Source: Lingula anatina (Eukaryota; Animalia; Brachiopoda). Taken from it: a DNA stretch of 64,000 nucleotides. The position numbers and the translations under genes were made by a program. Each line of letters starts with the position of its first letter. Within the stretch, counting starts at the first letter, position 1. Below, piece by piece: positions 3,795 to 64,000 of the stretch. The notes under the pieces are model-generated. The model did no database searches and was not told the DNA's origin. It worked only from the letters and a program-made list of their open reading frames with translations. Where the stretch lies: assembly GCA_051362555.1 (NCBI GenBank), contig CM120647.1, forward strand, positions 2,232,001 through 2,296,000. The letters run 5' to 3'.

Positions 3795-6700
3795 AACATA
3801 AATGTTGTAATGGTCAAAATATGCTGAAATACATCACTTTCTATAAGGACTTTTTCTTGATAAACATTTATCTCTGCATCATGATGAACAACACATAAAT
3901 GAGCTCAATGTTGGGACATTTTGGTGGCCCAAGGAGCAGCAATTCTTTGCCATGCACGCAACATATATTTTCTTACTGAAACAGCAAATGCACATTTTTA
4001 AAAATCACCCCCAAGTTTCTTTTCCCTAAAAATACCATTTTGCCACCCAACACTGAAAATATAGGCCAAAGAAATTTAGCTCTAAGCATGCATGACGTCA
4101 TTTTTTTATTTTAGAACGACTGTTACACTACACTCGGGCAACTCTGCAATACTGCGGGCATATTTTGCCAGTTTCATACTGCTATAGTACTGAAGCATAA
4201 TGATCTGAATTTTATGTTTTCATGTTATCGTGAACATTTATTTCACTCTTTTCTTAAATTAACAAAAAATATACGCATCTTGAAAAGTTTCCTATATGCA
4301 TTTTACGCACTAGTGTTTCGACTGTTTACCTTCCCAAAATGTCATTTCTTTAAAATTTTTAATTAAAATAATTGAATTCAAGATAAAAGAAATAATTGAA
4401 CCGCACAGCGTAGTGCACTATTGAAGATTTGCCCACAGATATTTTTCTGCCAATAAAAAGTGTACAAGTACAGTACTTTACATGACCATCACCTAAGGAC
4501 AACTTTATAACTATCGCCTCATCAATATTGTTTTCATACACTTCAGCAAGGCATTGTCTGCATTGACATCATTAAATAAGAACGTCGTCTTCGAGTACCA
4601 GAATTGATGGGTAGCCTACACAAGCGTATAAACAAATTACCAGTATAAAACCACCATAGGTGGATAGATTACTGTACGACTTGGTAGCTAATAAACAAAT
4701 TATTCGCTGTACGAGCGATTTTTCATTTGATACCTATTTTGATGCAAATAAGCTTATCCCAAACATTACACTTTACATTAAATGTCAACCCTGTATATCA
4801 ACCAGAGGACAAACTTCGGCCAGCGGGACGATCTTGACATGGGCGTGGCCGATGTTCAACATGAATCTGATGTCTTTGATGGAGGACGCATCTAGTCACC
4901 CCGTAAACGGCTGTGAAGAGTCGCTGAAATTAAAGAAAGAAATCTAAATTAACAAAACGAACATTTTTATTCGATTTTGATAAAGCAATATGTACCATCA
5001 CAGCAACCTATCGCGGTATGCGTGGCTAACATTAACAAATTACTGTTCAACTTTAAAACCACACTAATATATTTATTAAATCAACATGGCCTCTGCTACC
5101 ACGAACTTTATAACGGTATCACTTCCTTCCTTTTATATCCATTACACACTTAAAACGATACAGGGGCTAGGATACAGGAGATACAGGTGTCTTCACGGAG
5201 ATAGATCACGGAAGTGAAAGTCAATAAATGAAAACATTTGACAGTAGAGTAGAGCCCAGTTTACATAAACTTTTCTGGAACTAATAAATTGGCAAAACCT
5301 TTTTTTATTGGGGGGGGGGGTGTTCTAGGATGAAAACAGTTGTCTTGTTTCGCTCACAAAATACAAAAGTCTACACGCAGGCAATTTTATTCTTATTTCT
5401 CTACGCCATTAACGTCGAACTGGACTGGTTTCGTCTGGTTTCTTTTATGTACTGTTTTATATAGAAATATAGTTTGTTTAAAGTTTACTCTAATAAATAT
5501 GTTATTTTGGATATTTTAAAACAAAATCCCTGTTCTAAACAATAAAACAGCGTCCACAAGGAAAATGTAGTTACCTGTCCAGTTACCTTATTGGTTAAGG
5601 CTGTTTAAGACGGAAGGCTCTTTGTTAAGACCTTTCTGGCGTTTAGTTGATATAAGCCCCTTACTTCTTTATTGGCAAATGTGTTCCCCCTGGAAAATAA
5701 CAGAAAATGAATTATTCAGATTACAAGGTGATATTCGGATTTTTAATGTATATTGTTATCGTTAGTAAAAGGTCTCTGTGGAAATAAATATCTACAGAAT
5801 TCATCATTTAGAGAAAATATCGTGAACGCGGAAAAAGCAACGTTCTCTTACATATCTATACCGTACCGGGTCGCTGCAGTTGACAGTATCAAATTCTCGG
5901 TCTTGTAGCAATATGGCGTGAGGCTTCTATCTTCCCCACCCTCTACTGACCTTGGACCTATGTGAATACATCTCACCAAATGCTGATTTACATAATAATA
6001 TCAAGGTCACCTGATTTCGCAATTTTCGATTTGAAATTATTAAGATTTGATGGAGTGCAATGGATCTCAAACCCGAAATAGTGTTTTTTAGCAAAAACAA
6101 TAACACTATACTTGATATCAAGTGATCAGGATGAGCTATCAGATTTCATTGGTCACATGAATGAATCCAAGAAAAAAATCACTGGTTTGAGATTGTGTTA
6201 GAGAAGACAAGGTGTGTGTGTGTGTGTGTGTACTTTATAAAGGCTACACATAGTATAGTGTTAGGAAAAATTAGTGACATCGTGAGCACAGCTCAGTTAA
6301 CTTCAGCTGCCACCTTCAGGAATGACGAAACAGATGTGCTCTCGAAAAAATTACAGTTAAAAACCAAAACGCATCGCTTATCAAGTGTCCGCGAATGTCA
6401 GCCAGTTATAAAATATCCCCCTGTTTACCAACCGTTGTTGTAGTTATAAGCATTGGTGGTAGGCAAATTAAACTGGGGCATAAGCCGGCAAATACGTCAC
6501 TCTATTTTTCCCATTTCGTTGACAGTGATCAGTTAAACACATTCATTTCATCAAGAAGTCGCCTTTAATGTAAATCCCTGTTTCATTCTGAGGTTGTATA
6601 TAATGACCAGTGGGCAAGCTGAAGGTGCACGCAGACAACCGACCCGCTAGAATGGTAGACAACACAATGATGTTGGGACGGGACAGACGACAGCAAATAT

Positions 6701-7425: not shown

Positions 7426-7482
7426 CTTCTTCCTGGCCCATTTCCATCAATTCTGTGGTAAGACTGACGACCATGTTCAGAC
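7426..7482 (-). other. Dispersed 57-58 bp motif, diverged copy F
   Basis: Reverse strand gtctgaacatggtcgtcagtcttaccacagaattgatggaaatgggccag aligns without gaps to copy B. Confidence 0.55.
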
Positions 7483-7810
7483 TGGATATGCTTTAAGATT
7501 TGACAGCTTCGGTCGTTTATTGTTAGAATAAGAAGTACTTATTGTTTAGTATTGGATAATAAGTTACAAGTCCTCGTAACGACATATGATCGAGCGTGTA
7601 TATCGCAATTTAGATTCCGTTGAGTAGAGTTTTTAGTCTATAATTTTAGAAATGAACAAACATGCCAGCTTTTAGAAATGACATTACAAGGCAAACTATG
7701 CTTAGTAAATATATATCATATAAATACCGAGCCTCGTGGTAATATGCAGGAATAGCAATTCCCGAGAAAAAAATACTTGCGACGAAATAAAAATAGCAGG
7801 CCTATAACTC

Positions 7811-8127
7811 CAGGCCTACCCAACTACCAGACTCGGCACCGAATGATCCTGAATTCACCGGTAGATCGGACCACACTACCCGTTTTCAAGGTGTGCGTCA
7901 GTACGCGCTTCGAAGTATCAGACGAGACACCGCTCTTGCCTAGTACGCGATATGATAGTGATGATTCTCAACGGGGTTGGAAAGTATTGCATCACCACTC
8001 AAAATTTGTTTGGGGTATGATACTGTGAAATGCGTACTGACACACACCTTGAAAACGGGTAGTGTGGGCCGATATACCTGTGAATTCGGGATCATTCGGT
8101 GCCGAGTCTGGTAGTTGGGTAGGACTG
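7811..8127. mobile_element. MITE with ~95-bp TIRs and a 5-bp TSD (AACTC)
   Basis: caggcctacccaactaccagactcggcaccgaatgatc... and its near-perfect reverse complement ending ...ggtagttgggtaggactg; aactc on both sides. Confidence 0.9.
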
Positions 8128-22996: not shown

Positions 22997-23037
<41 letters not shown>

Positions 23038-23101
23038 TAAGGTTATCTTACGTCATAATTAGTTGCTTACTGTAACACACACACACACACACACTGTACA
23101 T

Positions 23102-23135
<34 letters not shown>

Positions 23136-23380
23136 TACATAAACACACACACACACATACACACACACTGTACATAAACACACATACACACACACACTGT
23201 ACATAAACACACACACACACACACACACACACTGTACATAAACACACACACACACACACACACACACACTGTACATAAACACACACACATACACACACAC
23301 ACACACACACTGTACATAAACACACACACACACACACTGTACATAAACACACACACACACACACACTGTACATAAACACA

Positions 23381-23413
<33 letters not shown>

Positions 23414-23456
23414 TGTACATAAACACACACACACACACACACTGTACATAAACACA

Positions 23457-23487
<31 letters not shown>

Positions 23488-23599
23488 TGTACATAAACAC
23501 ACACACATACACACACACACACACTGTACATAAACACACACACATACACACACACACACACACTGTACATAAACACACACACACACACACACTGTACAT

Positions 23600-23637
<38 letters not shown>

Positions 23638-26600
23638 TACATAAACACACACACACACACACGAGTAGCGTGCCTGGTTTTTGAGCTCCCATTCTTTTTG
23701 TCTTTTATGTTGTGCTTTATTTTTTTTTGAACTCATTTTGGTCTTATTGTATATATCCATTATTTTATGTATATGATTTAATTTGTAATTTTTCTTCTTA
23801 TCCAGTTTATTTACAACTTCGACTTTGTGGTTGCTATGTATTAATAAACTAATTATAATTATTATTGTTGTTATTATCATCATCATTATTTTTATTATAA
23901 ACACACACATACACTTACCTATTCTTAACAGAATAATTCGTCTCCCCAGCTTGTCTTTACAATCCAGCACATTGCTCACTCCAGCCTCAAGCATGTGCTT
24001 CAGGTTCATTGGTGTAAAGTTCTCAAAGATGTCCGGGTTCTCTTTCCTCTTCTTGAAGTAGTTCAGCAGCAGATCAAACGCCCTCTGGTGGTCAAATTTA
24101 CGAGCTCGTAAGAAACGCAGTAGGAACGCATCGTCTGTTCTGCACTTCAAACCTGAGGAAGATTTTTTGATTGATTTTTTAAAAATTGATGAATTTCAAC
24201 TAAAATTTTGTTTACACATAATAATACCGATCGATAAATCATTATTTCTATTTCATCTGAATACATAAGTTTCAATCATTCCTTCAATTTAGCAACAGTC
24301 ATGTTGAGAGTAATGAATTAACAACCTGGAATTTAGAATGAATTACTATCATTTTTTTCATGTATAATTAAAGGGATAACAAACCTTTGTATGAGTTCTA
24401 TATTTCACAATAAAAACATTGTAAACAACTCATAAAAATATAATATTCTATTTAACCACCAAAAATGACAGTTAAAGCAAATTATTCTGAAATCTGTGCT
24501 TGTCACCACGTGACCTCCATAGATGGCTATACTCTGTAATAATCTCCTAAGAGATTATTGCAAAAAAAAAACTTTCTTGAAAAAAAAAACAGGGACTAAA
24601 TTTGAATGTAGAAATGGATTCCTTAACCATTTGTAAGTATGGGAAAATTGTTGTTTACCCCAGCAAAATTCATTTTTTGGCCAAAATGAACAGTTGTTAT
24701 TCAAATTATAATGGAAATGAAGTGTCTTTTAGGCGAAGCTTTTAACTGCAATCATCACAGCAGTCACTACAATAATGTATGGAAATCAATGAACCAACGT
24801 AAAACACCCATCCCCCCTATTCCCACTGACATATACTGGTATATCAGAAATAAATCAAATTGTACTGTGCAAATGTCCACATTTTGATGACAAAGACAAT
24901 ACTGTGTGTCACGTACAGTAGGATATAACACTCATTGCACTTTGTGATACTTTGGGTACTTTGTGATCAGGCTTGCAACATGTCAAATTTTAATACCTGC
25001 AGGTACATTTGTTTTTTTATATCATTTCTTGTGAAATTCTTGTTTACAGTTAACAGATCACTTGTTAATGTAGATCTTTCTGAATTCTCAGATGAATACA
25101 CTGCTGATCTGCAAACATGACACTGCAAGCTGTCAAATGTACAGACAACAAGACAGCAAAACTGTTAAATGTACAAACAAAAATCAAAAATATAGAATAA
25201 TAATGATAGTGCACAAAACTGTTATAGTTTTTCATTAATTTTGATGCAAAATAACTTAATGATTAACACCATAATTACCATCAATATTTAATTTAATATA
25301 CTACAGGTAATTTGGACATTTAGAAAACGTTACTAGTAAAGACCTTCAGTTTCATGGGATTTCAAAGTCACACACTGAAAATACCAATTAATATATGAAA
25401 AATGAACATTTCACTAAACAAGGCAGCAAAGCTGTCAAATGTACAGACAAAAAGCAGGAAATAACAAAATAGGCTACTGTCAATTCTGATGCAAAAGTAC
25501 ATTATGTAAAACTGCAAATTCAACATCAAATTTTAATTATGCTCAACAGGTAATACCAATGTAAGTAAAATGTGAAACGAGCATAAGGCTTCAGGCCCAT
25601 GGGAGTTCAAGTTCACACTTTGAAAATGTATAACTTCCAGAAAAAGAAGTCAATTAGACTGCTTTTCCAACTCAGGCTGCATTTTAGTCCTGTATTTCTT
25701 TTTTGAAAGTTTGGCAATCATAAGTAACATGGTTTTCCCATAATGGTCATCATGGCAGCAGCACCCAAAATTGTGTTTTCTTCTATTCTGATGCAGTATC
25801 ACATAATGGTTAACAGCATAATGACAATCAATTTTTAATAACAAAATATATGTATCATGGATTTTCAGAAAATGTGACTAGCCTGGGTCTTCAAGCCTGT
25901 GGAACTTCAAAGTCACACCTTGAAAATGCCAATATGTGAAAAATTAAATTTTCACAAAAAAAATGTTTATCTGGCAGATTGCATTGCCTACTGAAGCTGT
26001 ATTTTAGTCCCATGTTTCTTTCCTGTAAGTTTGAGAACAGTAAGTGACATGGTTTTTCTTAAAAGGTAATCATGGGAGCAGTGCCCAAAATAGGTTTTTT
26101 TCACATTTTGATGCAATATTACATAATTTGTAACAGCATAATGACCATCAATTTTTAATAATAAAATATTAGTATCATGGATATTTAGAAAATGTGACTA
26201 GCAAAGGTCTTCAGGCCCATGGAACTTCAAAGTCACAACTTGAAAATGCCAAAATGTAAACAAGACAGCACTGTTCTGAAATGTTTTTTTCCCCATTTTT
26301 AACAATTTTTAACATAAAACAAAATTAACAGTTTACTGCCATTTTTATATGATCAACTAAGAAAATTGATGAGATGAGAAAAGTATCAAAAGAGCAGTGT
26401 TAAATGTCCAATTTCTTCCATTCTGAGATTCTGAACATAGTGAATGATTGAATCTGACAAATTGCAATGATATGAGTTTATTTCCATTTTTGAAACTTTA
26501 CACAATACACGATAACATGTTTACCATCATTTTTACAAAATCAACTAACAATGTTGTAAAGATGCAGGAAATGTCAAACAAACACTTTCACATATCTTAT

Positions 26601-27898
26601 TAGTTTAATAATGAGACTGTTAACATGCCTAAAATTGAATCTGAGGAAATGTGAAAAAACAGCATACCTTCTAAAATAATGGCACGATTATGCTGATTTA
26701 CGAACTCAACCTGCATTTTAGTAAAATTGACCACTCCTGTGACTTTCATGACAATTGGCCCATCTGTTTTTCTTATATTGTGTTTACAGTGTTGCATATA
26801 TGCTGAAAAGTGTAAAAAACAGCATAACTAGTAAAATGGTGGCCCGATCATGCCGATTTTCGAACTTGACCTGCGTTTTAGTAAGATTGATTACTCCTAT
26901 GAGTTTCATGACAACAGGTCTATTGGTCTTCCTTGAAATGTGTTAACAGTGTTGCATATATGCTGAAAAGTGAAGAAACAGCATAATTACTAAAATAGTG
27001 GCCCGATCATGCCGATTTTCGAACTTGATCTGCGTTTTAGTAAGACTGATTACTCCTGTGAGTTTCATGACAACAGGCCTATCGGTTTTCCTTGAAATGT
27101 GTTAACAGTGTTGCATATGTGCTAAAAAGTGAAAAAACAGCATAAATTCTACAATAATGGCCCGATCATGCTGATTTTCGAACTTGACCTGCGTTTTATG
27201 AATATTAGTCAGCGCTGTAAATATAAAGCCAAAAAGTAAAACTATCTTCCACTTATGGTGTTAACACTGAAAGTGCACGGCGACGGCGACAGCGACGGCG
27301 ACATGATCGGCGACGGCGACGGCGACGACAGACGCAGGTGATGGCAATATGTACAGACACATCTGTGTCTGTACATAAAAAAGCATAACTTAAAGAAAAA
27401 TAATTCAGTTAAGCTGGTTTTTCAATTTTATGTCCTAAGAACAACTCTTATATGTTAATTAAAGAATTATAAGTGACACCGTTTTCCTTCTATTATAGTT
27501 AGAAAGTTTTCTACTATCTGCCTGTTTAAGAAATGGGTTCTTGCAAAAGGTCATCCATTACATCAGTGCTATTTTTTCTAGATTCATGAGGATAATTTAT
27601 TGACTTTTTTCAACACTGGGCTAGAGCACAATATGCCACGTATACTTTATAAACTTGTTGATCAACTGATTGCAATTTTACCTTCTAATCAATCAATTTA
27701 ATCTATATCAAATAGCTCACTATATATTTTGCTGGTGTGGAATCACATCAAATCTGTACAGATATGATGCAGAGTAGGAGCCACCCAGGGTCCAAAGGCA
27801 AACACTCCACCACCCATCCAATGATGCCACATGGGGACCCTAGTTATATGTATGACATATCAATGACAATGAAAGATAGCATGAAGCAAGGCTCTAAC

Positions 27899-27935
<37 letters not shown>

Positions 27936-28880
27936 TTGCAGGTTTTCCAAATTTGTAAGTGCCATAAACTTTCGGGTGTGCATTACTCCATTATTGAAAA
28001 TAGTAATGGGCTGTATAAATAGTAATGGTTGAAAGCTGATCAAATAACTCGAGCTCTTTACCTCAGATGTTAGCAATCACCATTTTTATGGCTGCATCAC
28101 AAAAATCACAGCTTAATGCTTCTCAGTGTCATTATTCTAGTCAAAAAAGATCAATCAATGTATTTCACCAGTAGGCTTATAAATTCTAAACAAAACTCAA
28201 AAAGGACAACATTAACATGGATGCAATTACTGCCAAAAAATTCTCAATAATTTTTTTTTTTTTTTGCAATTACAAGAATTTCAGAGGGACTTGGCTCACA
28301 AATAGAACCTTTTCAGTATTCTCTTGAAGCTGTAAGAATGAAAGGCATCACTGTGGCTGTGGGCAGCCTACCAGATACATAGCTTACAGCAGCACATTAA
28401 CAACCATTTGGTTTTTAACCAGCAACTTGTCATCTTTAACTTATATGAACACATGTTATGACTTTAACATAAAGGATAATTTGTGGTCTTTACATCATGC
28501 GTGGTATGCAATGCATTGTTAAATAATGGCACAAGTCAACCCCACTATTTCTCATAAAATTGATTCGTGTCCTAATTGCAAGGCAGTGGTGTCATGGCTC
28601 TGTGGAAGACGTCACACATCGTAAAACATGCACAAGCACTTAATTGTGAGAAATTACACCCCACAACATTACTCAGAAATTAGTTGGGCAGTGGTGTTAC
28701 TCTAAGTGCTTTCTACTAAATTATTTTATCCAGACAGTAATGGCTACCTGTATATTTGTTCACCATGTCCCTGAGTGCTGCTACATCCTTGGATCTCCAC
28801 TCAGGATCCTCATTTAGCTCATTCTTAGCCTTGTCTTGGAGCTCTGGGGTCAGTGTACACTGGTACGGGGCGGTAGACAT
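11156..28880 (-). CDS. TTPAL: CRAL-TRIO/Sec14-like lipid-binding protein (alpha-tocopherol transfer protein-like; TTPA/TTPAL/clavesin/RLBP1 family), 7 coding exons, 307 aa
   Basis: Manual splice assembly: 28880-28748, 24152-23919, 22247-22171, 15113-14997, 14657-14547, 11870-11769, 11305-11156. All introns are GT-AG, phases are compatible, total 924 nt. Family motifs: RTDDAFLLRFLRARKFD, GRWDPD, DEETQVSG, PIRLKGIHYFNEP, ELMPEEYGG, C-terminal GTFKKLNVD. The symbol is family-level; orthology is not established. Confidence 0.93.
11520..11725. mobile_element. Palindromic MITE; related copy at ~55470-55625
   Basis: Long inverted arms (ggggagtctcactaaattgctatc...ggcttaaatgtctgtcac / gtgacagacatttaagcc...gatagcaattcagtgagactcccc). 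Confidence 0.75.
11769..11870 (-). CDS. CRAL-TRIO gene coding exon 6 (VNFHGDRKEELLDVFPKELMPEEYGGDQPPFNHK)
   Basis: tttcag| acceptor, AAG|gtacac donor, 102 nt. Confidence 0.93.
12267..14319. mobile_element. Non-autonomous Kolobok-like DNA transposon (2053 bp), TSD TGAA
   Basis: TIRs ggggcaatccgcagtatt / aataccacggattgaccc; tgaa at 12263-66 and 14320-23; subterminal ttacggacggaa motifs mostly forward on the left and inverted on the right; GG termini and a TTAA-like 4-bp TSD fit Kolobok. Confidence 0.8.
14547..14657 (-). CDS. CRAL-TRIO gene coding exon 5 (EGMPIRLKGIHYFNEPSFMGTIFEMIKPFMKEKIKKR)
   Basis: ttgcag| acceptor, |gtatgt donor, 111 nt. Confidence 0.93.
14997..15113 (-). CDS. CRAL-TRIO gene coding exon 4 (DEETQVSGLVVLVDAKGMTWNHGKHFNPFFAKKLMSIIQ)
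   Basis: gactag| acceptor, CAG|gtagga donor, 117 nt, phase 0-0. Confidence 0.92.
15175..17335 (+). mobile_element. Crypton (CryptonA/DUF3504-like tyrosine recombinase) element, decayed and 3'-truncated
   Basis: ORF 16538-17095 carries LNYWVSKFIVEVRKENGEEYPPNS and HFGLRGGQE; after a stop and frameshifts it continues YLRYTEDCSKT..GG..KEVVRH...PDRCHVHLFKRY; own introns (donors ~15733 and 17331, acceptor ~16501); left boundary approximate. Confidence 0.85.
16502..17330 (+). pseudogene. Crypton tyrosine recombinase main exon, disrupted
   Basis: Stop after GLRGGQE, then frameshifts; C-terminal catalytic H-x-x-R and Tyr region absent. Confidence 0.8.
17438..22075 (+). repeat. Satellite/minisatellite, 35-bp unit (GATATAATGGTAGACACAAGAAGGACACCCAGTCA) with a 39-bp variant, roughly 125-130 units
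   Basis: Direct inspection; highly homogeneous; lies in CRAL-TRIO intron 15114-22170. Confidence 0.98.
22171..22247 (-). CDS. CRAL-TRIO gene coding exon 3 (GRWDPDRYPVTDVMRTQLLNLEKIIQ)
   Basis: tttcag| acceptor, CAG|gtaagt donor, 77 nt; not in the ORF track. Confidence 0.92.
22998..23661 (+). repeat. Compound microsatellite: (CA)n blocks punctuated by CTGTACATAAA
   Basis: Direct inspection; source of the spurious CV-rich ORFs. Confidence 0.97.
23919..24152 (-). CDS. CRAL-TRIO gene coding exon 2 (GLKCRTDDAFLLRFLRARKFD...GRRIILLRI), CRAL-TRIO N domain
   Basis: ttcctcag| acceptor, |gtaagt donor, 234 nt, phase 1-1. Confidence 0.95.
24850..27383 (+). mobile_element. Helentron-associated (HINE/DINE-like) non-autonomous element with internal tandem repeats
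   Basis: ~160-bp units at 26661, 26821, 26980 and 27139 (core cgaacttgacctgcgtttt); (GACGGC)n; stem-loop tatgtacagacac-atct-gtgtctgtacata at 27348-27377 followed by an A-run; upstream ~300-bp degenerate units; 5' boundary approximate. Confidence 0.7.
28748..28880 (-). CDS. CRAL-TRIO gene coding exon 1 (MSTAPYQCTLTPELQDKAKNELNEDPEWRSKDVAALRDMVNKYT)
   Basis: ATG at 28880 (aagATG); upstream acceptor gtccag| at 28895; donor G|gtagcc, phase 1. Confidence 0.9.
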
Positions 28881-30150: not shown

Positions 30151-30220
30151 ATACAAGACTTGAAATTATGCAATAAAATATTGAATTAAGTCTTAATTTC
30201 ATAAGTGTTGTTTTGATGCT

Positions 30221-30278
30221 GTCTCAACCATGATTGTGACGGACTCTACAGATTTTACCAGATTGTGCTTGAGAAGAC
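30221..30278 (+). other. Dispersed 57-58 bp motif, copy A
   Basis: gtctcaaccatgattgtgacg...attgtgcttgagaagac; see findings. Confidence 0.85.
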
Positions 30279-30394
30279 CGGACGCGACTTTGAGGGGGGG
30301 GGGGGGGGGGGGGCAGGTGTCCCGTGTGATTTTTTTTAGATTAGATTTAAATATAGTCAAACTAAACTGTACAGTTGCCTGCAATTTATTTTAC

Positions 30395-34424: not shown

Positions 34425-34481
34425 GTCTCAACATGGTTGTGACGTCTTCTACAAAATTGATGGAAATGTGTTAGATGTGAC
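34425..34481 (+). other. Dispersed 57-58 bp motif, copy B
   Basis: gtctcaacatggttgtgacg...aatgtgttagatgtgac. Confidence 0.75.
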
Positions 34482-40439: not shown

Positions 40440-41240
40440 TAACAATGATTGCTGTTTTATAATGGGAAGACATTGGAAATTGTGATTTCAACTATTGCTA
40501 ACTTGCTGTTATACATAGGGACCAATCAGAATGAGAAGAGCCCAGTGCTAGTTAGGCCATGACCTAAATATGGCAGACCTACATATGAAAGGAAGACTGC
40601 TTAATCCTGTAATGAACTCTCCACCTCTCACATGCCTCACCACATGTCGTCAGTAATTAAATCTCTGTATAATTCAACGGTTGCAGTTGCATTATGGGAA
40701 TATATTCAGCATTGTGACATTAGCAATTGCAGTTGCATTATGGGATTAAGCATTGTGATATCATCAATAGCAATTGTATTATGGGAATACATTGAACATT
40801 GTGACATTTGCATTGTGGGAAGACATTGAACATTGTGACATCAACAATTGCTGTTGTATTATGGGAATACATTGAACATTGTGACATTTGCATTGTGGGA
40901 AGACATTGAACATTGTGACATCAACAATTGCTGTTGTATTATGGGAAGACATTGAACATTGTGACATCAACAATTGCTGTTGTATTATGGGAATACATTG
41001 AGCATTGTGACATCAACTATTGCTGTTGTATTATGGGAATACATTCAGCATTGTGACATCAACAATTGCTGTTGTATTATGGGAATACATTCAACATTGT
41101 GACATCAACAATTGCTGTTGTATTATGGGAATACATTCAACATTGTGACATCAACAATAGCAGTTGCATTATGGGAATACATTAAACATTTTAACATCAA
41201 CAACTGCTGCTGTATTTTGGTAAGAGATTGAACATTGTGA
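40440..41240 (+). repeat. Short diverged array of the 46-bp satellite
   Basis: attatgggaa(t/g)acattgaacattgtgacatcaacaattgctgttgt units with degenerate edges. Confidence 0.9.
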
Positions 41241-45492: not shown

Positions 45493-45616
45493 TCTTTTAC
45501 GCATCTTTTAAACTGAGGTAGTTTTTAATTAATAAGTAAATAATTGTATTCAGTTTGGTATATCTTGTTGTTGGAAATTTATTGAGCATTTAAACAACAG
45601 CTATTGCTTATGTATC

Positions 45617-48600
45617 ATGGGAAGACATTGAACATTGTGACATCAACAATTGCTGTTGTATTATGGGAAGACACTGAACATTGTGACATCAACAATTGCT
45701 GTTTTATTATGGGAAGACACTGAACATTGTGACATCAACAATTGCTGTTTTATTATGGGAAGACACTGAACATTGTGACATCAACAATTGCTGTTGTATT
45801 ATGGGAATTAGACATTGAACATTGTGACATCAACAATTGCTGTTGTATTATGGGAATTAGACATTGAACATTGTGACATCAACAATTGCTGTTGTATTAT
45901 GGGAAGACATTGAACATTGTGACATCAACAATTGCTGTTGTATTATGGGAATTAGACATTGAACATTGTGACATCAACAATTGCTGTTGTATTGTGGGAA
46001 GACATTGAACATTGTGACATCAACAATTGCTGTTGTATTATGGGAATTAGACATTGAACATTGTGACATCAACAATTGCTGTTGTATTATTGGAATTAGA
46101 CATTGAACATTGTGACATCAACAATTGCTGTTGTATTATGGGAATAAGACATTGAACATTGTGACATCAACAATTGCTGTTGTATTATGGGAATTAGACA
46201 TTGAACATTGTGACATCAACAATTGCTGTTGTATTATGGGAATTAGACATTGAACATTGTGACATCAACAATTGCTGTTGTATTATGGGAATTAGACATT
46301 GAACATTGTGACATCAACAATTGCTGTTGTATTGTAGGAAGACATTGAACATTGTGACATCAACAATTGCTGTTGTATTATGGGAATTAGACATTGAACA
46401 TTGTGACATCAACAATTGCTGTTGTATTGTGGGAATTAGACATTGAACATTGTGACATCAACAATTGCTGTTGTATTATGGGAATTAGACATTGAACATT
46501 GTGACATCAACAATTGCTGTTGTATTATGGGAATTAGACATTGAACATTGTGACATCAACAATTGCTGTTGTATTGTGGGAATTAGACATTGAACATTGT
46601 GACATCAACAATTGCTGTTGTATTGTGGGAAGACATTGAACATTGTGACATCAACAATTGCTGTTTTATTATGGGAAGACACTGAACATTGTGACATCAA
46701 CAATTGCTGTTGTATTATGGGAATTAGACATTGAACATTGTGACATCAACAATTGCTGTTGTATTATGGGAATTAGACATTGAACATTGTGACATCAACA
46801 ATTGCTGTTGTATTATGGGAAGACATTGAACATTGTGACATCAACAATTGCTGTTGTATTATGGGAATTAGACATTGAACATTGTGACATCAACAATTGC
46901 TGTTGTATTGTGGGAAGACATTGAACATTGTGACCTCAACAATTGCTGTTGTATTATGGGAATTAGACATTGAACATTGTGACATCAACAATTGCTGTTG
47001 TATTATTGGAATTAGACATTGAACATTGTGACATCAACAATTGCTGTTGTATTATGGGAATAAGACATTGAACATTGTGACATCAACAATTGCTGTTGTA
47101 TTATGGGAATTAGACATTGAACATTGTGACATCAACAATTGCTGTTGTATTATGGGAATTAGACATTGAACATTGTGACATCAACAATTGCTGTTGTATT
47201 GTAGGAAGACATTGAACATTGTGACATCAACAATTGCTGTTGTATTATGGGAATTAGACATTGAACATTGTGACATCAACAATTGCTGTTGTATTGTGGG
47301 AATTAGACATTGAACATTGTGACATCAACAATTGCTGTTGTATTGTGGGAATTAGACATTGAACATTGTGACATCAACAATTGCTGTTGTATTATGGGAA
47401 TTAGACATTGAACATTGTGACATCAACAATTGCTGTTGTATTGTGGGAATTAGACATTGAACATTGTGACATCAACAATTGCTGTTGTATTGTGGGAAGA
47501 CATTGAACATTGTGACATCAACAATTGCTGTTGTATTATGGGAATTAGACATTGAACATTGTGACATCAACAATTGCTGTTGTATTATGGGAATTAGACA
47601 TTGAACATTGTGACATCAACAATTGCTGTTGTATTGTGGGAATTAGACATTGAACATTGTGACATCAACAATTGCTGTTGTATTGTGGGAATTAGACATT
47701 GAACATTGTGACATCAACAATTGCTGTTGAATTGTGGGAAGACATTGAACATTGTGACATCAACAATTGCTGTTGTATTATGGGAATTAGACATTGAACA
47801 TTGTGACATCAACAATTGCTGTTGTATTGTGGGAATTAGACATTGAACATTGTGACATCAACAATTGCTGTTGTATTGTGGGAAGACATTGAACATTGTG
47901 ACATCAACAATTGCTGTTGTATTATGGGAATTAGACATTGAACATTGTGACATCAACAATTGCTGTTGTATTATGGGAATTAGACATTGAACATTGTGAC
48001 ATCAACAATTGCTGTTGTATTATGGGAATTAGACATTGAACATTGTGACATCAACAATTGCTGTTGTATTATGGGAATTAAACATTGAACATTGTGACAT
48101 CAACAATTGCTGTTGTATTGTGGGAAGACATTGAACATTGTGACATCAACAATTGCTGTTGTATTATGGGAAGACATTGAACATTGTGACATCAACAATT
48201 GCTGTTGTATTATGGGAATTAGACATTGAACATTGTGACATCAACAATTGCTGTTGTATTATGGGAATTAGACATTGAACATTGTGACATCAACAATTGC
48301 TGTTGTATTGTGGGAAGACATTGAACATTGTGACATCAACAATTGCTGTTGTATTATGGGAAGACATTGAACATTGTGACATCAACAATTGCTGTTGTAT
48401 TATGGGAATTAGACATTGAACATTGTGACATCAACAATTGCTGTTTTATTATGGGAAGACATTGAACATTGTGACATCAACAATTGCTGTTGTATTATGG
48501 GAATTAGACATTGAACATTGTGACATCAACAATTGCTGTTGTATTATGGGAATTAGACATTGAACATTGTGACATCAACAATTGCTGTTGTATTATGGGA

Positions 48601-50782
48601 AGACATTGAACATTGTGACATCAACAATTGCTGTTGTATTATGGGAATTAGACATTGAACATTGCGACATCAACAATTGCTGTTGTATTGTGGGAAGACA
48701 TTGAACATTGTGACATCAACAATTGCTGTTGTATTATGGGAAGACATTGAACATTGTGACATCAACAATTGCTGTTGTATTATGGGAATTAGACATTGAA
48801 CATTGTGACATCAACAATTGCTGTTGTATTATGGGAATTAGACATTGAACATTGTGACATCAACAATTGCTGTTGTATTATGGGAATTAGACATTGAACA
48901 TTGTGACATCAACAATTGCTGTTGTATTGTAGGAAGACATTGAACATTGTGACATCAACAATTGCTGTTGTATTATGGGAATTAGACATTGAACATTGTG
49001 ACATCAACAATTGCTGTTGTATTATGGGAATTAGACATTGAACATTGTGACATCAACAATTGCTGTTGTATTATGGGAATTAGACATTGAACATTGTGAC
49101 ATCAACAATTGCTGTTGTATTTTGGGAATTAGACATTGAACATTGTGACATCAACAATTGCTGTTGTATTATGGGAATTAGACATTGAACATTGTGACAT
49201 CAACAATTGCTGTTGTATTATGGGAATTAGACATTGAACATTGTGACATCAACAATTGCTGTTGTATTATGGGAATTAGACATTGAACATTGTGACATCA
49301 ACAATTGCTGTTGTATTATGGGAATTAGACATTGAACATTGTGACATCAACAATTGCTGTTGTATTATGGGAATTAAACATTGAACATTGTGACATCAAC
49401 AATTGCTGTTGTATTGTGGGAAGACATTGAACATTGTGACATCAACAATTGCTGTTGTATTATGGGAAGACATTGAACATTGTGACATCAACAATTGCTG
49501 TTGTATTATGGGAATTAGACATTGAACATTGTGACATCAACAATTGCTGTTGTATTATGGGAATTAGACATTGAACATTGTGACATCAACAATTGCTGTT
49601 GTATTGTGGGAAGACATTGAACATTGTGACATCAACAATTGCTGTTGTATTATGGGAATTAGACATTGAACATTGTGACATCAACAATTGCTGTTGTATT
49701 ATGGGAATTAGACATTGAACATTGTGACATCAACAATTGCTGTTGTATTATGGGAATTAGACATTGAACATTGTGACATCAACAATTGCTGTTGTATTAT
49801 GGGAATTAGACATTGAACATTGTGACATCAACAATTGCTGTTGTATTATGGGAATTAGACATTGAACATTGTGACATCAACAATTGCTGTTGTATTATGG
49901 GAAGACATTGAACATTGTGACATCAACAATTGCTGTTGTATTATGGGAATTAGACATTGAACATTGTGACATCAACAATTGCTGTTGTATTGTGGGAAGA
50001 CATTGAACATTGTGACATCAACAATTGCTGTTGTATTATGGGAAGACATTGAACATTGTGACATCAACAATTGCTGTTGTATTATGGGAATTAGACATTG
50101 AACATTGTGACATCAACAATTGCTGTTGTATTATGGGAATTAGACATTGAACATTGTGACATCAACAATTGCTGTTGTATTGTAGGAAGACATTGAACAT
50201 TGTGACATCAACAATTGCTGTTGTATTATGGGAATTAGACATTGAACATTGTGACATCAACAATTGCTGTTGTATTATGGGAATTAGACATTGAACATTG
50301 TGACATCAACAATTGCTGTTGTATTATGGGAATTAGACATTGAACATTGTGACATCAACAATTGCTGTTGTATTATGGGAATTAGACATTGAACATTGTG
50401 ACATCAACAATTGCTGTTGTATTATGGGAATTAGACATTGAACATTGTGACATCAACAATTGCTGTTGTATTATGGGAATTAGACATTGAACATTGTGAC
50501 ATCAACAATTGCTGTTGTATTATGGGAATTAGACATTGAACATTGTGACATCAACAATTGCTGTTGTATTATGGGAATTAGACATTGAACATTGTGACAT
50601 CAACAATTGCTGTTGTATTATGGGAATTAGATATTGAACATTGTGACATCAACAATTGCTGTTGTATTATGGGAAGACATTGAACATTGTGACATCAACA
50701 ATTGCTGTTGTATTATGGGAATTAGACATTGAACATTGTGACATCAACAATTGCTGTTGTATTATGGGAATTAGACATTGAA
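45617..50782 (+). repeat. Satellite, 46-bp unit (ATTATGGGAAGACATTGAACATTGTGACATCAACAATTGCTGTTGT) with a dominant 49-bp variant (+TTA), just over 100 units
   Basis: Direct inspection; ends at the TGAA target site of the inserted transposon. Confidence 0.98.
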
Positions 50783-54353: not shown

Positions 54354-54860
54354 TGAACATTGTGACATCAACAATATTGGTTGTATTATGGGAAGACATT
54401 GAACATTGTGACATCAACAATTGCTGTTGTATTATGGGAAGACATTGAACATTGTGACATCAACAATTGCTGTTGTATAATAGGATGACATTGAACATTG
54501 TGACATCAACAATATTGGTTGTATTATGGGAAGACATTGAACATTATGACATCAACAATTGCTGTTGTATTATGGGAAGACATTGAACATTGTGACATCA
54601 ACAATTGCTGTTGTATTATTGTAAGACATTGAACATTGTGACATCAACAATTGCTGTTGTATTATGGGAAGACATTGACTATTGTGACATCAACAGTTGT
54701 TGTTGTATTATGGGAAGACTTTGAACATTGTGACATCAACAATTGCTGTTGTATTATGGAAAGACATTGGACATTGTGACATCAACAATTGCTGTTGTAT
54801 TATGGGAAGACATTGAACATTGTGACATCAACAATTACTGTTGTACATGTATTATGGGAA
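54354..54860 (+). repeat. Continuation of the 46-bp satellite right of the transposon (~11 more diverged units)
   Basis: Resumes in register (tgaa|cattgtgacatc). Confidence 0.95.
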
Positions 54861-55274: not shown

Positions 55275-56251
55275 GTGAGTCATGAGTTTGTAAAAACAAT
55301 ATGCACTGCCTGTTGTTTTATCACTATGAAACTAGCTTAGAAGAAATCCTGCTTTAAAATGGCAATTCCATTGCACAGCCTTTAAATTGTCTTCAGGTAT
55401 AGAAAAAGATCCAAAGAATGGCTTAACTTTCGAGTTATTACCATAATTTCTAAATGATATACATTATTTCACTAGATGTCTGTCATGCCTACTGAACCTG
55501 CTAGGGGGTAATTAATTATCATTTAGCAGGTTCAGTAGGTGTGTCAGACATTTAAGCAACTTAAGCTGAAAGCAATGAGCGAGAAACCCTTTGGAGATGA
55601 ATCGATCCTGTTAGATTGATCTAAGTATGGGAACCCAGTCTTAATATTTGCTATGTCTAAAGGTTGATGTACTAATAGATAATATTTTCTCCTATTACAT
55701 GAATTAATATTATATGAATCAATATTATATAACCTATTTGGGTTTTATGTAAATATGATGATGGTTTACTCATACTGCCAATGTTAATGAATAGTTGTGT
55801 TCAGTTGATAGATTAAAAGGGTACAGACACAGTAGTATTGATGACTGGCCAGAAAATTAAACCAAACCAAACCAAAAGATTTGGAACAATGAAAAAACAA
55901 ATTTTACTTCTATTATAGACAGACCATACCTGTTGAGGTGAAAGTATCTGATTTTTTCAAAGAATTTTACAATTCATGTGTCACTACTCTTGCCTACGGA
56001 TGCCATTGAATCTGCTTCATACCATGTAGAATATATTTTAATGTGTGTTTATATATACTGTATTTGTGTGTATATATTCTGATCTCATTCTCACAGACAC
56101 CATTGGTCAACTTGGAGTGATCCAACTCTGTGCCTAGACTCTCGCAAAGTGCAATTAGCTTAACTGAGTGAAGCGCCTCTGCAGGCATTGAATAGAATAC
56201 AAAATAGCTGCTGATTATGCAAGCAGTATATGTTGGAAACAAGAGGAGGCA

Positions 56252-60193: not shown

Positions 60194-60291
60194 CCCAGCA
60201 GACAAACGACATTGATTCACCGTTGAATCAACGTTAATTTTGGTGGATCAACGGTGAATCAACGTAGAATCAATGTCGTTTGCCTGCTGGG
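60194..60291. mobile_element. Palindromic MITE (CCCAGCAG termini, ATA TSD), EnSpm/CACTA-like
   Basis: cccagcagacaaacgacattgattc ... gaatcaatgtcgtttgcctgctggg; ata on both sides. Confidence 0.85.
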
Positions 60292-60296
60292 ATAAC

Positions 60297-60457
60297 GTGG
60301 GCGTCAGGTTCATTGGTCCGAAGGTTCATTGGTCCGAAAAGTGGTAACATTATATCGATTTTTTAAAGAAGGGTTCATTGGTCCGAAGGTTCTATAGCGA
60401 ACATTCGGACCAATGAACCTTCGGACTATTGAACCTTCGGACTATCGCTACGGCCCC
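60297..60457. mobile_element. MITE with internal ggttcattggtccgaa repeats and an 8-bp TSD (GGGATAAC) overlapping the end of the preceding MITE
   Basis: Short repeats forward then inverted; gggataac at 60289-96 and 60458-65. Confidence 0.75.
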
Positions 60458-60689
60458 GGGATAACACGTAAATACTCTGCAGAGGCTTTTACTACCTTTC
60501 GCAAGTTCTTCGGGTGGCGTTTTATTATTTTTGTTTTCAAAGTTTCTCGCTGGACAACACAAAAACTGTTAAGAATTGACCAGAAAAAATATTTGTGTCA
60601 CTTTAATGAATAATTCTCTGTGTGGCCCTGGTAGAGGTTACTAGTGTCCTTTCAACATTACAAGCGAGATTCCAGCTGATTCTGATGCC

Positions 60690-60747
60690 GTCTCAACCAT
60701 GATTGTGACGGATAGCACAGATATCACCCCATTGTGTTAGTGAAGAC
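60690..60747 (+). other. Dispersed 57-58 bp motif, copy C
   Basis: gtctcaaccatgattgtgacg...attgtgttagtgaagac. Confidence 0.85.
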
Positions 60748-62017
60748 ATAACGTGAGACTGGAGGGGAGGGAGATAGCATGTACGTGTATTGCAATGATT
60801 GGAGTGTTTGAAGGGGAATGTGGTGGGGTGGGGGGGGGGAGGATAACGGGGATGGATGTAGGAGAGAGGAAGGGAGACACAGAAAGATCAGTTCGTTACA
60901 ACAGTCGTACTAACTCACGGGGAACAATATTTTTAGGTTGTCCCTGACAGCATCTAAGAGACTTCTGGAAACTCACCTTAGCATACCTGTGGCAGTGTAA
61001 GTAAGTAGTAGTAGCAGTGCATGTAGTAGTAGGCCTACAAGATGAAGTTGTCCACTGTGGTAGTAATAGTAGTAGTATTTAATGTGGAAGTATAGAAGGC
61101 AATGTAAGTGCTGGCATAGGCTGTATATGTATACAAGTAATACTCACTGCACGTGGCTGTGATGACAATACAATTAGATCTAGAAAACCCAATCCATTGA
61201 GCAATGAGCGGATCTCGTTTAATTACCCGTAGAAAGGACCGACCCCCTCCCCTTCCACCCCCCCCCCCCCCCCAACACACGCACAAACAGTTTTTGATGA
61301 TAATGATAAAAATATAAGACCGAAATTTCTCTCAGGTGCGCCCCCAAACTTTCAAAACCTGTACGCATCATTCCCGAACAAATATATTAAAAATTTACCA
61401 CATATCCAATCCTAGGTTTCATTTGTCGTATACGATGTCCTATGGTGTCCATGTATTGCCCATATGCCCCTACTCGTGGGACGTCCGTCACTTAACTTCA
61501 AAGTCATGTGGGAAAAATAGTACGTCATCCGTTACTTAACCTCAAATTCATGTGGGACAAATGGTACCTATACTAGTCCATAGTCACTTTTACTATGCAC
61601 AAAATACGGCAAATTGATTCGATTTCATCGTACGGCGTCTGTGAAAAAAGTAGCCAAAGCTTTAGCAGAACGCTGATAATAATAATACCCCCAATGGCGA
61701 TATCCGACATTAGTTCTAGATATTTGTGTGTAATTTAATATTGTCCATCAAAATGCTCCTGCTTTATAAGCAATTATTATGAATTTGGTTTTCGATTTTA
61801 TTAATGTCTCGACTAAATCTACTTGATGTGAAAATTAATCGCTGACAGTTTATGTAGTTCACTCTCTTTCTCGCACGCGTTTTTATCCCCTTAATCTTTC
61901 TTGCTAACCCAAAATAAGTTTTCTGTCACTGTGAAGACATTTCAAATGAGCAATCTCAGTTAATACGGGAAATGAGCCACAGGCAGGTATTGTGCTGTGG
62001 ACATTTCTTTGCTTTTA

Positions 62018-62259
62018 CAGTAGGGGAGACAGGGGCTAGTTGGACCCCGGGGTAAGTTGCCCCCCATCAATTTATAACAAAGTAACTATGGGGTAAAAGA
62101 ATTGATCACATCATTTTGTAAAGCGACCTTATCCAATAGCGCTAAGAAAGCGTCGGCAGTGAGTCCAAATGAAATAATTTAGTATCTATAATTTATTAAA
62201 TAGACTTGATGAGGGGGCCAACTTATCACGGGGTCCATCCAACCCCGTCTCCCCTACAG
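62018..62259. mobile_element. MITE (gtaggggagac TIRs)
   Basis: gtaggggagacagggg ... ccccgtctcccctac. Confidence 0.75.
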
Positions 62260-62370
62260 AGATTAGCCATCTATTTAACCAGCGAAGCATATTTGAATAT
62301 ATAGTGAAAAAATCGATCTATGGCCCTGGTAGAGGGTAGCCAGAATCTGCGGTGTGTTGATTTTGATGCT

Positions 62371-62428
62371 GTCTCAACCATGATTGTGACGGACTCCACA
62401 AATATCAGCCAATTGTGTTAGTGAAGAC
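62371..62428 (+). other. Dispersed 57-58 bp motif, copy D
   Basis: gtctcaaccatgattgtgacg...attgtgttagtgaagac. Confidence 0.85.
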
Positions 62429-63611
62429 ATAACGCGAGACGGGGAGGGGGATGAAATGTTTATAAAGAAATGACCTAATAAGTCATTGGAAATGACAACA
62501 TGCTATTTTAGTTTAAAATAGATGTCGACGAGCCTTTAAGCAGAGAAAGTTGGATTAAAAGGAAAGATGTTGAAATAAAACGGCGCAAAAATGATGGGGG
62601 GAGGGTATGATGATAGTATAAAAGGTTTGGGAGAGTCGGGGAAATTGAGTTTTGAGAGCGTTTGGGTGTTTACTGATGTCCTTTAACTTTAACACACCAG
62701 GTTATACAAACTTTTGCAACTTTTGTCTTTAAAGAAAATATGTACAGATTATCTTTTTTTATATAACTACCGTATGTTTCAGCTATAGTAATTCATAAAA
62801 ATGTACTTTAAGGATGACTTTTGAGAAAGAGCGCCATTACTAAAATCGCAGCACTGGAAAATTAACTGGCAAAGCGTCAGCACTACGAAAGGAACTAAAA
62901 TAGGTTAAAAATTGAACATAAAGTGCCGACAGAATTTACGTGGAGTCCAAGTTTGCAAATTTTGAACTACACAAACTGTCAGCGATTAATTTTCACATCA
63001 AGTATGTTCGCCGACTTGCACGAAATATTGCACATTTCCATTTATGCACTGGGACCTATTTGCGTGACAATCCAGAACATATACATAGGAAAACATAAAA
63101 CAGAAGTGCTAATGAATGAGCCGAATTGCCGAACTATCCACATTGCCAATGAGCTAAAATAGTACAGATTGCGGGTTGAAGGACAGAATGATAATTTTAT
63201 TTTATTTTTTAAATTAAAAATGAATTCGTTACGAGGTGAGATATTCGAGACTTCACAAAGAAATCTAAACAATATTTCAAAAATGTTCCAGTAATATAAA
63301 AAGTTAGGCTAACTTTTGAGGTGAGTGTCACCTCTACCTGAGGTGTGCAATAAGCCACACAACGGAGACTGAAATATTGGAGCGCAAAAATTGACTTGTT
63401 TTAATTATTGATTAAAACAGGCTGTTAGTATGACTAAGTTGTAAAACAACCGGAATAATTCTTGAAACATTGAAAGACTTGAATTGAAATATAATAAATT
63501 TCTTAATTGCCGATTTAGTTTTTCTATTTAATTTTGTATACTCAAAGTATTTTAGCAAACTGCTTACAATTCATTTATAACCGAGGCGTTTCTTTCCAAA
63601 GCATAAAAAAT

Positions 63612-63653
<42 letters not shown>

Positions 63654-63801
63654 CGTGAGTGTGTCGGGTGGGGGCGTAGGTCGTGCACGGGAATCTCCCT
63701 CTCTGGCAATTGTCAATATTGACAGGTACGTAATGGTCCGGGAGAATAGAGGAAGTTGAGTTACAACAGGGTTAATGCTACAGTATTTGACTTCAGAGTC
63801 T

Positions 63802-63858
63802 ATCTCAACATGATTGTGACGGTGTCCATGAATTTCATCATATTGTGCTAGTGAAGAC
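63802..63858 (+). other. Dispersed 57-58 bp motif, copy E
   Basis: atctcaacatgattgtgacg...attgtgctagtgaagac. Confidence 0.85.
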
Positions 63859-64000
63859 AGCGATAAAGCACAGAGGGCGCTGATATGATAATTATCATAA
63901 TTATTTTTTTAAATACTAGAAACTTTTTGCACTGAATACACTAACTTCAATACTGCCCAAATTTCTTGAATCTCATTGATATGAAAAAAGAGTACCATGT

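What the first reader, a model, noticed from the sequence alone, without database searches (positions are those of the whole stretch)
60690..63858. Unexplained dispersed 57-58 bp motif with fixed internal spacing (at least 6 copies; 3 clustered here)
Seen: copies at 30221, 34425, 60690, 62371 and 63802 (+) and 7482 (-) share GTCTCAAC(C)ATG(A/G)TTGTGACG, then ~20 variable nt, then ATTGTG(C/T)TAGTGAAGAC. The middle varies freely in sequence but never in length; the only indel is one C before the ATG. Flanks are mostly unrelated and no TSD or poly-A is evident. The ends are near-inverted (GTCTCA / TGAAGAC), and a TTGTG sub-motif recurs 29 bp apart. Inference: conserved blocks with an invariant spacer look like selection rather than neutral decay of a transposon. 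Candidates are a bipartite protein-binding or recombination-type site, an snRNA/piRNA-type promoter element, a small hairpin RNA, or a micropeptide (next finding). I recognise no known family.
Basis: partly seen in the sequence, partly recalled or inferred. Interest (0 to 1): 0.85.

Follow-up and report, generated by a model that had tools for sequence, protein, structure and literature searches.

The report
Conserved palindromic core of invertebrate repeat
The 58-base motif is the best-conserved inner part of a longer repeat found at many places in this invertebrate's genome, likely a non-coding DNA transposon whose palindrome was probably kept because the element needed it to move, so it is a new but probably ordinary piece of mobile DNA.

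Summary
The motif is real: five clear copies with a 20-base spacer (0 in 100 shuffles), one degenerate copy and one possible half copy. It is not a free-standing 58-mer. Whole-genome contigs laid on two copies show a family of likely hundreds of copies that runs at least 34 bases upstream and into a G-rich tract downstream. In some copies it abuts the sharp end of a higher-copy 63-base module. The spacer is not free: it has a genome-wide consensus, subfamily variants, and length variants (each about 2-6% of local depth). An unbroken spacer in five copies is expected by chance (P about 0.1-0.3). No support was found for a structured RNA, a Pol III SINE, a micropeptide or a recombinase site. Best reading: a constrained cis-acting core in the left arm of a non-autonomous DNA transposon, laid out like DINE-1/HINE rolling-circle elements. 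Membership is not shown, because the TT target and 11-15-base subterminal repeats were not found. Interest is low to moderate.

The parts
60690..60747 (+). Motif copy: palindromic block (60689-60710), 20-base spacer, 17-base 3' block
60677..60782 (+). Extent of the longer repeat family ('A') at this copy, ending in a G-rich tract
   Evidence: 84% over 106 bases to 62358-62459; summed contig depth rises from under 700 to 36,757 and falls after 60762
60576..60640 (+). Diverged copy of the 63-base module 'X', 36 bases upstream of the family A segment
   Evidence: 71% over 66 bases to 62275-62338, E 2e-5
62275..62338 (+). Module X: very high-copy element end with a short terminal stem-loop (about 62323-62337), followed by TA and unrelated flanks genome-wide
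   Evidence: depth about 126,000 falling to about 3,600 by 62345; 12 contigs with loose ends of agreement 0.42 behind 62338; fold
62337..62459 (+). Most consensus-like family A copy: inferred left end at 62337, motif at 62371-62428, G-rich tract
   Evidence: loose-end consensus of runs X2, X8 and X18 reproduces this copy's upstream sequence; depth profile
63792..63892 (+). Diverged copy (motif 63802-63858, 1-base deletion in the palindrome centre) with homologous flanks
   Evidence: 72% over 98 bases to 62369-62463, E 2e-12; flank test
30205..30304 (+). Family A copy (motif 30221-30278) followed by a poly-G run
   Evidence: 80% over 101 bases to 62354-62450
34425..34481 (+). Distant subfamily copy; core only, flanks not alignable
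   Evidence: found at E 7e-5 by a profile built without it; flank test negative
7433..7487 (-). Degenerate copy sharing its spacer with 34425; 3' block lost
   Evidence: 84% over 45 bases to 34425; E 0.001
6189..6210 (+). Possible 3'-block-only fragment; not clearly above chance
   Evidence: E 0.015; the best hit on the reversed-window control had E 0.029
62021..62256 (.). Unrelated MITE inserted just upstream of X: TAG...CTA ends, CAG duplicated on both sides
   Evidence: inverted arms; flanks

Best explanation
The motif is the best-conserved inner part of a longer multi-copy repeat, likely the left arm of a non-autonomous DNA transposon, and its palindrome was probably kept because only copies with an intact signal could be moved by a transposase supplied in trans. 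Shown: the family extends beyond the 58-mer on both sides; it has a consensus spacer, subfamilies and spacer indels; its right side frays in a G-rich tract; some copies abut the sharp end of a higher-copy module X that ends in a small stem-loop. Inferred: A and X are the left and right modules of one kind of element, or sister elements that share the 9-base start TAGCCAGAG; the X-then-A junctions are head-to-tail insertions; the palindrome and the 3' block are recognised as DNA, as a single-strand hairpin or a transposase-binding site. The mechanism I commit to is rolling-circle transposition of the Helitron2/Helentron (HINE, DINE-1) type: about 0.4 for that class, about 0.9 for transposon origin of any class.
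For: Multi-copy: 380 of 2,210,286 contigs (run X1) and 284 of 2,705,218 (X8) lay on 62260-62560; 168 of 3,950,069 (X2) and 76 (X8) lay on 60645-60885. Summed depth at the palindrome is 13,700-50,200, against about 25-90 for low-depth pieces, a rough 300-700-fold. Longer than 58 bases: and loose ends in three runs. Consensus spacer: 60713-60715 differ from the window copy in 82-99.7% of depth, 60720 in 74-79%. Indel variants: 1,198 of 32,742 at 62399 and 222 of 5,747 at 62408; 267 of 14,775 and 300 of 5,353 at 60720, plus a loose end implying a 17-base spacer. Constraint on the blocks; at least 3 of 20 spacer sites but 0 of 38 block sites are polymorphic at 5% or more (Fisher p 0.037). The constraint is on DNA letters, not codons: third positions of codons 2-4 are invariant in 5 of 5. 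The one indel sits in the hairpin loop. Precedent: DINE-1 has a conserved core of about 90 bp in its left block, a microsatellite and a 3' stem-loop (PMC2374699, passages); oyster HINEs have a left module ending in a microsatellite-like tract and a 60-bp right module (PMC7492417, passages).
Against: The HLE2 rule of insertion between two Ts is not met: the best-supported right end of X is followed by TA (15 of 110 loose-end rows were shown). No 11-15-base subterminal inverted repeat was found; the best match is about 7 of 9 bases. That A and X belong to one element is inferred from two window copies and a junction depth of only about 3% of X. The depth ratio suggests hundreds of copies, while 5-7 copies in 64 kb would imply far more if evenly spread; this is unexplained. 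No compensatory change supports the hairpin, and its folding energy as DNA is only -2.7 kcal/mol.
Confidence: 0.7

Rival explanations
1. It is the internal or subterminal segment of a cut-and-paste MITE (TA-targeting) or of a Crypton-type tyrosine-recombinase element, and the repeated GAC-ending words are transposase-binding sites.
For: X is followed by TA, and the X-A junction reads end-TA-start. The region is dense in MITEs. The window holds a broken QRICH1/DUF3504 reading frame whose relatives also carry PF00589.
Against: No inverted copy of the X end in the window (2 of 2 matches are on +). Crypton ends are 4-6-base direct repeats (PMC3212892, passages) and none was identified. No copy of the motif or of X lies near the DUF3504 frame.
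Confidence: 0.15
2. It is the conserved central domain of a SINE-like retroelement, shared by families with different heads and tails (like the CORE, Deu or Meta domains), and acts as RNA.
For: The core is shared by copies with unalignable flanks (34425, 7482). Two adjacent hairpins are possible on + in all five copies, 62 of 65 cells paired, with changes compatible with G-U pairs.
Against: Best Pol III A+B box fits carry 6-8 mismatches, the same as 40 random segments (6-9). No tRNA gene, no Rfam hit, no TSD, no covariation, folding z-scores -1.1 to +1.1. Six motif words were absent from 2 of 3 MetaSINE supplement files; one 8-mer hit an unrelated RTE alignment in another supplement.
Confidence: 0.07
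3. It is a host regulatory module: a bipartite binding site, spread by a transposon and now kept by host selection.
For: Strong block-versus-spacer contrast. The window holds 5-7 copies, more than the depth ratio predicts for an even spread. Copy 30221 lies about 1.3 kb upstream of the start codon of a CRAL-TRIO gene.
Against: Individual copies decay in the blocks (30221, 34425, 7482). No regular position relative to genes was seen. None of 8,073,193 contigs of organism B, from the same study as run X2, lay on the stretch (weak, since its relatedness is unknown and a filter drops records).
Confidence: 0.05
4. It encodes a 13-residue micropeptide (ATG in an A-at-minus-3 context, then TAG).
For: Four of five copies keep ATG-12 codons-TAG in frame, and the serine at codon 6 uses both TCN and AGC.
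Against: pN/pS is 0.82 in that frame, within the 0.66-1.32 range of the six frames; changes fall evenly on codon positions (8, 10, 9); 30221 has lost the stop. No homologue among 1.84 billion representatives or by word search; both queries were short, so this is weak.
Confidence: 0.03

Closest known systems
DINE-1 / HINE (non-autonomous Helentron, HLE2)
   Same: No coding capacity; a conserved core in the left module; a variable simple-sequence tract after it; a right module of about 60 bases ending in a short stem-loop; a small hairpin at the inferred left end (passages of PMC2374699, PMC4067079, PMC7492417, PMC3627910).
   Different: No 11-15-base subterminal inverted repeats found; right end followed by TA rather than T-rich DNA; the tract is G-rich rather than GTCY; the palindrome is internal, 34 bases from the inferred end; no shared sequence shown.
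Non-autonomous Crypton (CryptonA-N, Eulor5/6)
   Same: No TIR or long TSD; ends conserved across distant families (PMC5753468, passages); a Crypton-like pseudogene lies in the window.
   Different: No 4-6-base terminal direct repeat found; copy number is high; the palindrome has 9-10-base arms and a 5- or 6-base centre, not 11-13-base arms around a 6-8-base core.
SINE superfamilies with a conserved central domain (CORE, V, Deu, Ceph, Meta)
   Same: A core of about 60 bases shared by subfamilies with different flanks (PMC4824008, start of abstract in search listing).
   Different: No Pol III boxes, tRNA head, tail repeat or TSD.

Membership tests
HINE / HLE2 (Helitron2, Helentron) | 11-15-bp subterminal (asymmetric) inverted repeats | tested here: not met
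   Best match between the inferred left end and the right module is about 7 of 9 bases (read); the full consensus was not available
HINE / HLE2 (Helitron2, Helentron) | Short stem-loop near the 3' end | tested here: met
   5-pair stem at about 62323-62337, at the sharp end of X; weak, -2.9 kcal/mol
HINE / HLE2 (Helitron2, Helentron) | Hairpin or inverted repeat at the 5' end | tested here: inconclusive
   AGCC...GGCT with a 3-base loop in the loose-end consensus of X8 and X18; four pairs can be chance, and the left end is inferred
HINE / HLE2 (Helitron2, Helentron) | Insertion between T and T, no TSD | tested here: not met
   Best-supported right end is followed by TA; no empty site could be examined
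HINE / HLE2 (Helitron2, Helentron) | Conserved core and microsatellite-like tract in the left module | tested here: inconclusive
   Conserved core present; a G-rich tract of variable length follows, but it is not GTCY
HINE / HLE2 (Helitron2, Helentron) | Autonomous Rep-helicase partner with the same ends | not testable with these tools
Crypton | 4-6-bp direct repeat at both termini, alike in all copies | tested here: inconclusive
   Only TA seen at the X end; a 9-base start is shared by X and A as a direct repeat
Tyrosine-recombinase site | 11-13-bp inverted arms around a 6-8-bp core of fixed length | tested here: not met
   Arms 9-10 bases; centre 6 bases in 3 of 5 copies and 5 bases in 2 of 5; definition from PMC3212892, fixed length recalled
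TIR MITE (the 58-mer as a whole element) | TIRs bounded by a TSD and unrelated flanks | tested here: not met
   No TSD in 5 of 5; flanks homologous in 4 of 5
SINE | Pol III A and B boxes, tRNA or 5S head | tested here: not met
   6-8 mismatches, as in random segments; ARAGORN 0 genes; no Rfam hit
Structured ncRNA or ribozyme in Rfam | Match to a covariance model; covarying pairs | tested here: not met
   None of the 10 matches at E up to 5 overlaps a copy; 0 of 13 pairs covary in 5 sequences, low power
Named Repbase or Dfam family | Sequence match to a curated consensus | not testable with these tools
   These libraries are not held; motif words were not found in a relevant paper

The most novel reading that the evidence does not exclude
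The palindrome-20-base-block module is the cis-acting signal of an undescribed lineage of TA-flanked DNA transposons that have neither TIRs nor Helitron-type ends. It has been held almost invariant while its spacer diverged to 35-70% identity, and it is read by an unknown recombinase or nuclease as a hairpin plus a second site at fixed distance.
Probability: 0.12. Interest if true: 0.6.

Novelty: new member of a known kind. Interest (0 to 1): 0.27.

Why it matters
If the best reading holds, this is one more unnamed non-autonomous transposon family in a repeat-rich invertebrate, and it matters mainly for repeat annotation. One point has wider use: the internal palindrome, conserved across subfamilies whose spacers are only 35-70% alike, marks a candidate transposase-recognition signal that could be tested. 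DINE-1's conserved core has only been suggested to matter for transposition (PMC2374699). If the ends fit no known superfamily, the module would point to a new class of DNA transposon.

Tried and rejected
Pattern scans: the bipartite pattern had 0 matches in metagenome, viral and prokaryote genome collections; block 1 and the X end had 0 in viral contigs. A degenerate 20-base palindrome found 8 metagenome loci, all 40-62% GC and none with the 3' block, so I treat them as unrelated. Earlier findings of this scan: nothing in 4 of 4 look-ups. Run search: no RNA holder listed. RNA lays: 16, 5 and 6 reads in three runs (6%, 6% and 25% of each run read), all under 95% identity and so from other copies; two libraries are poly(A)/oligo-dT and one unspecified, so small RNAs are untested. 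Tandem-array relic (copies 1,681 and 1,431 bases apart): the intervals share nothing beyond X, the family A segment, one 42-base inverted pair and low-complexity matches. RSS-like reading (CACAAT, 23 bases, ACAA on the minus strand; RSS layout recalled): rejected because the would-be cut side is conserved family sequence. Hammerhead, SECIS and twister readings (recalled): no Rfam support. piggyBac TTAA end for X: the best-supported end is TA. My first structure string was one column off in helix 2; one search is the corrected count. Literature: two full-text searches for motif words gave 6 and 6 unrelated papers (listings only); one search gave nothing relevant; one MetaSINE supplement file could not be searched, and sequences shown only in figures are not visible.

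Full report
Setting. The window is animal DNA, 32-41% GC, rich in satellites and small inverted-repeat elements. It holds exons of a CRAL-TRIO gene; the top hits of one exon are mostly molluscan proteins at 52-58% identity, so the host is an invertebrate with no close relative among the hits.

Observation. A pattern with a free 10-30-base gap finds 5 matches, against 0 in 100 shuffles. All five have a 20-base spacer, and the only indel is the C before ATG. A profile built from three copies recovers 63802 (E 2e-12) and 34425 (E 7e-5). The copy at 7482(-) is degenerate and shares its spacer with 34425. A 3'-block fragment at 6192 is not clearly above chance. Block 1 is an imperfect 22-base palindrome with a conserved T-T mismatch, and the indel lies in its loop.

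It is part of something longer. Four of five copies share flanks: 106 bases at 84% (60690/62371) and 98 bases at 72% (62371/63802), and 101 bases at 80% (62371/30221). Only 34425 does not. Both 60690 and 62371 are preceded by the same 63-base module X (71% over 66 bases), and these are the only 2 matches to its end in the window.

Genome-wide view. Contigs of whole-genome runs were laid at 80% likeness. On 62260-62560, 380 of 2,210,286 contigs (X1) and 284 of 2,705,218 (X8) aligned, and none of 8,073,193 from organism B. On 60645-60885, 168 of 3,950,069 (X2) and 76 of 2,705,218 (X8) aligned. Summed depth peaks over the palindrome at 50,200, 26,700, 36,800 and 13,700. Against the median of 5-10 low-depth pieces that I picked from the piece tables (pieces above depth 90 and one at 10.6 left out), that is about 300-700-fold. 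The tool warns that depth is not copy number, so I read this only as hundreds of similar copies. Loose ends upstream of 60677 in three runs reproduce the upstream sequence of copy 62371, including the end of X. Downstream, the family runs into a G-rich tract and then frays. X has a sharp right end: depth falls from about 126,000 to about 3,600 within 10 bases, and 12 contigs run on into unrelated DNA after TA. Loose ends on the left of X agree for only about 13-18 bases, and both X and A appear to begin with TAGCCAGAG (inferred). Only 15 of 110 and 13 of 40 loose-end rows were shown.

The spacer. It has a consensus: at 60713-60715 the family differs from the window copy in 82-99.7% of depth, and at 60720 in 74-79%. 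Length variants exist: an inserted A at 62399 (1,198 of 32,742) and a deletion at 62408 (222 of 5,747); a deletion at 60720 (267 of 14,775 and 300 of 5,353) and two contigs implying a 17-base spacer. The five window spacers carry at least 23 substitutions. With the local ratio of 10 indels to 146 substitutions in 8 repeat pairs (likely biased low, since several pairs were found without gaps), the chance of no indel is 0.21, or 0.10-0.32 over ratios of 0.10-0.05. Fixed spacing is therefore not evidence of selection.

What remains unusual. Divergence is uneven: 2 changes in 21 palindrome columns, 23 in 20 spacer columns, 7 in 17 3'-block columns. Shuffling columns and taking the best window gives p 0.0008 and 0.00005; clustered multi-base changes would inflate this somewhat. 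Among near-identical copies, at least 3 of 20 spacer sites and 0 of 38 block sites are polymorphic at 5% or more (p 0.037). Spacers are 7-14 of 20 identical between copies. So the blocks were constrained while subfamilies diverged.

What the constraint is not. RNA: folding z-scores run from -1.1 to +1.1 in 10 of 10 folds. A two-hairpin consensus pairs 62 of 65 cells, but 0 of 13 pairs covary and the score does not beat shuffles (five sequences, low power). None of 10 Rfam matches at E up to 5 touches a copy. RNA reads were few (16, 5, 6) and all under 95% identity. Peptide: four of five copies keep a 13-codon frame, but pN/pS is 0.82, changes are spread evenly over codon positions, and third positions in block 1 never vary; no homologue was found. 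SINE: Pol III boxes fit no better than in random DNA, and there is no tRNA gene. Recombinase site: arms are 9-10 bases and the centre is 5 or 6 bases, against 11-13 and 6-8 in PMC3212892 (passages).

Mechanism. Shown: an internal, DNA-level conserved module in a multi-copy non-coding family, next to a sharp element end with a small stem-loop. Inferred: selection acted on the line of active master copies, which needed the module to be mobilised in trans; individual insertions then decay, as 30221, 34425 and 7482 show. The layout (left module with conserved core and simple-sequence tract; right module of about 60 bases with a terminal stem-loop; head-to-tail junctions at about 3% of X depth) is most like DINE-1 and HINE rolling-circle elements. 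DINE-1 has a core of about 90 bp, conserved across 12 species and suggested to matter for transposition (PMC2374699, passages). Oyster HINEs have a left part ending in a microsatellite-like tract and a 60-bp right part (PMC7492417, passages). It works like these elements with odds of about 0.4. It is not filed as a member, because the TT target (PMC11417382 and PMC4067079, passages) and the 11-15-base subterminal repeats were not found. A TA-targeting MITE or a Crypton derivative is the main rival; the window holds a broken DUF3504 frame but nothing links it to the motif.

Unexplained. Hundreds of copies in a genome of several hundred million bases (run contigs total 353-635 million letters) would give well under one per 64 kb, yet the window has 5-7. 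Either the lays miss old copies or the family clusters locally.

Novelty. No match was found in metagenome, viral or prokaryote collections (the 8 palindrome-only loci lack the 3' block), in two full-text searches (listings) or in supplements of three papers (one file not searchable). Repbase and Dfam could not be searched, so the family may already be named. Other papers seen as passages only: PMC5753468, PMC3627910, PMC8969392. Verdict: a likely new member of a known kind, interest 0.27.

Noticed in passing
window 16484-17345 (+): Broken Crypton-like tyrosine recombinase frame (QRICH1 and DUF3504 hits; relatives 47-50% identical also carry PF00589). It has in-frame stops, and a 4.6-kb 35-base satellite begins just downstream at 17439.
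   Followed up: partly
window about 11600-28880 (-): Exons of an alpha-tocopherol-transfer-like CRAL-TRIO gene; likely start codon at 28880. The Crypton-like frame and the 35-base satellite appear to lie in one of its introns.
   Followed up: partly
window 62021-62256: 236-base MITE with TAG...CTA ends and a 3-base CAG duplication; resembles Academ-type ends (recalled, from no call).
   Followed up: partly
window 62275-62338 and 60576-60640: Module X is a very high-copy element end (roughly 1,400-1,900-fold depth) whose superfamily is unresolved; it deserves its own classification.
   Followed up: partly
window 40751-41240, 45603-50782, 54354-54845: A 46/49-base satellite in three separate arrays, with higher-order mixing of the two unit lengths.
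   Followed up: no
window 22602-22629: AGAC/GGAC microsatellite (GTCY on the minus strand), the type described for DINE-1/HINE left modules, about 530 bases from the end of the 35-base satellite; may mark a HINE carrying that array.
   Followed up: no
window 7811-8127, 11547-11706, 55468-55559, 60194-60291, 60306-60442: Further palindromic or TIR-bounded small elements; 11564-11667 and 55473-55576 are related.
   Followed up: no
window 61820-61861 and 62963-63004: 42-base inverted pair, 98% complementary, flanking copy 62371; either two insertions of one family or the arms of a 1.2-kb element.
   Followed up: no
L004, L006, L008; L007:1001-1020: The same 20-base palindrome occurs in intergenic-looking DNA of likely bacterial contigs, possibly operator sites; unrelated to the window motif.
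   Followed up: no
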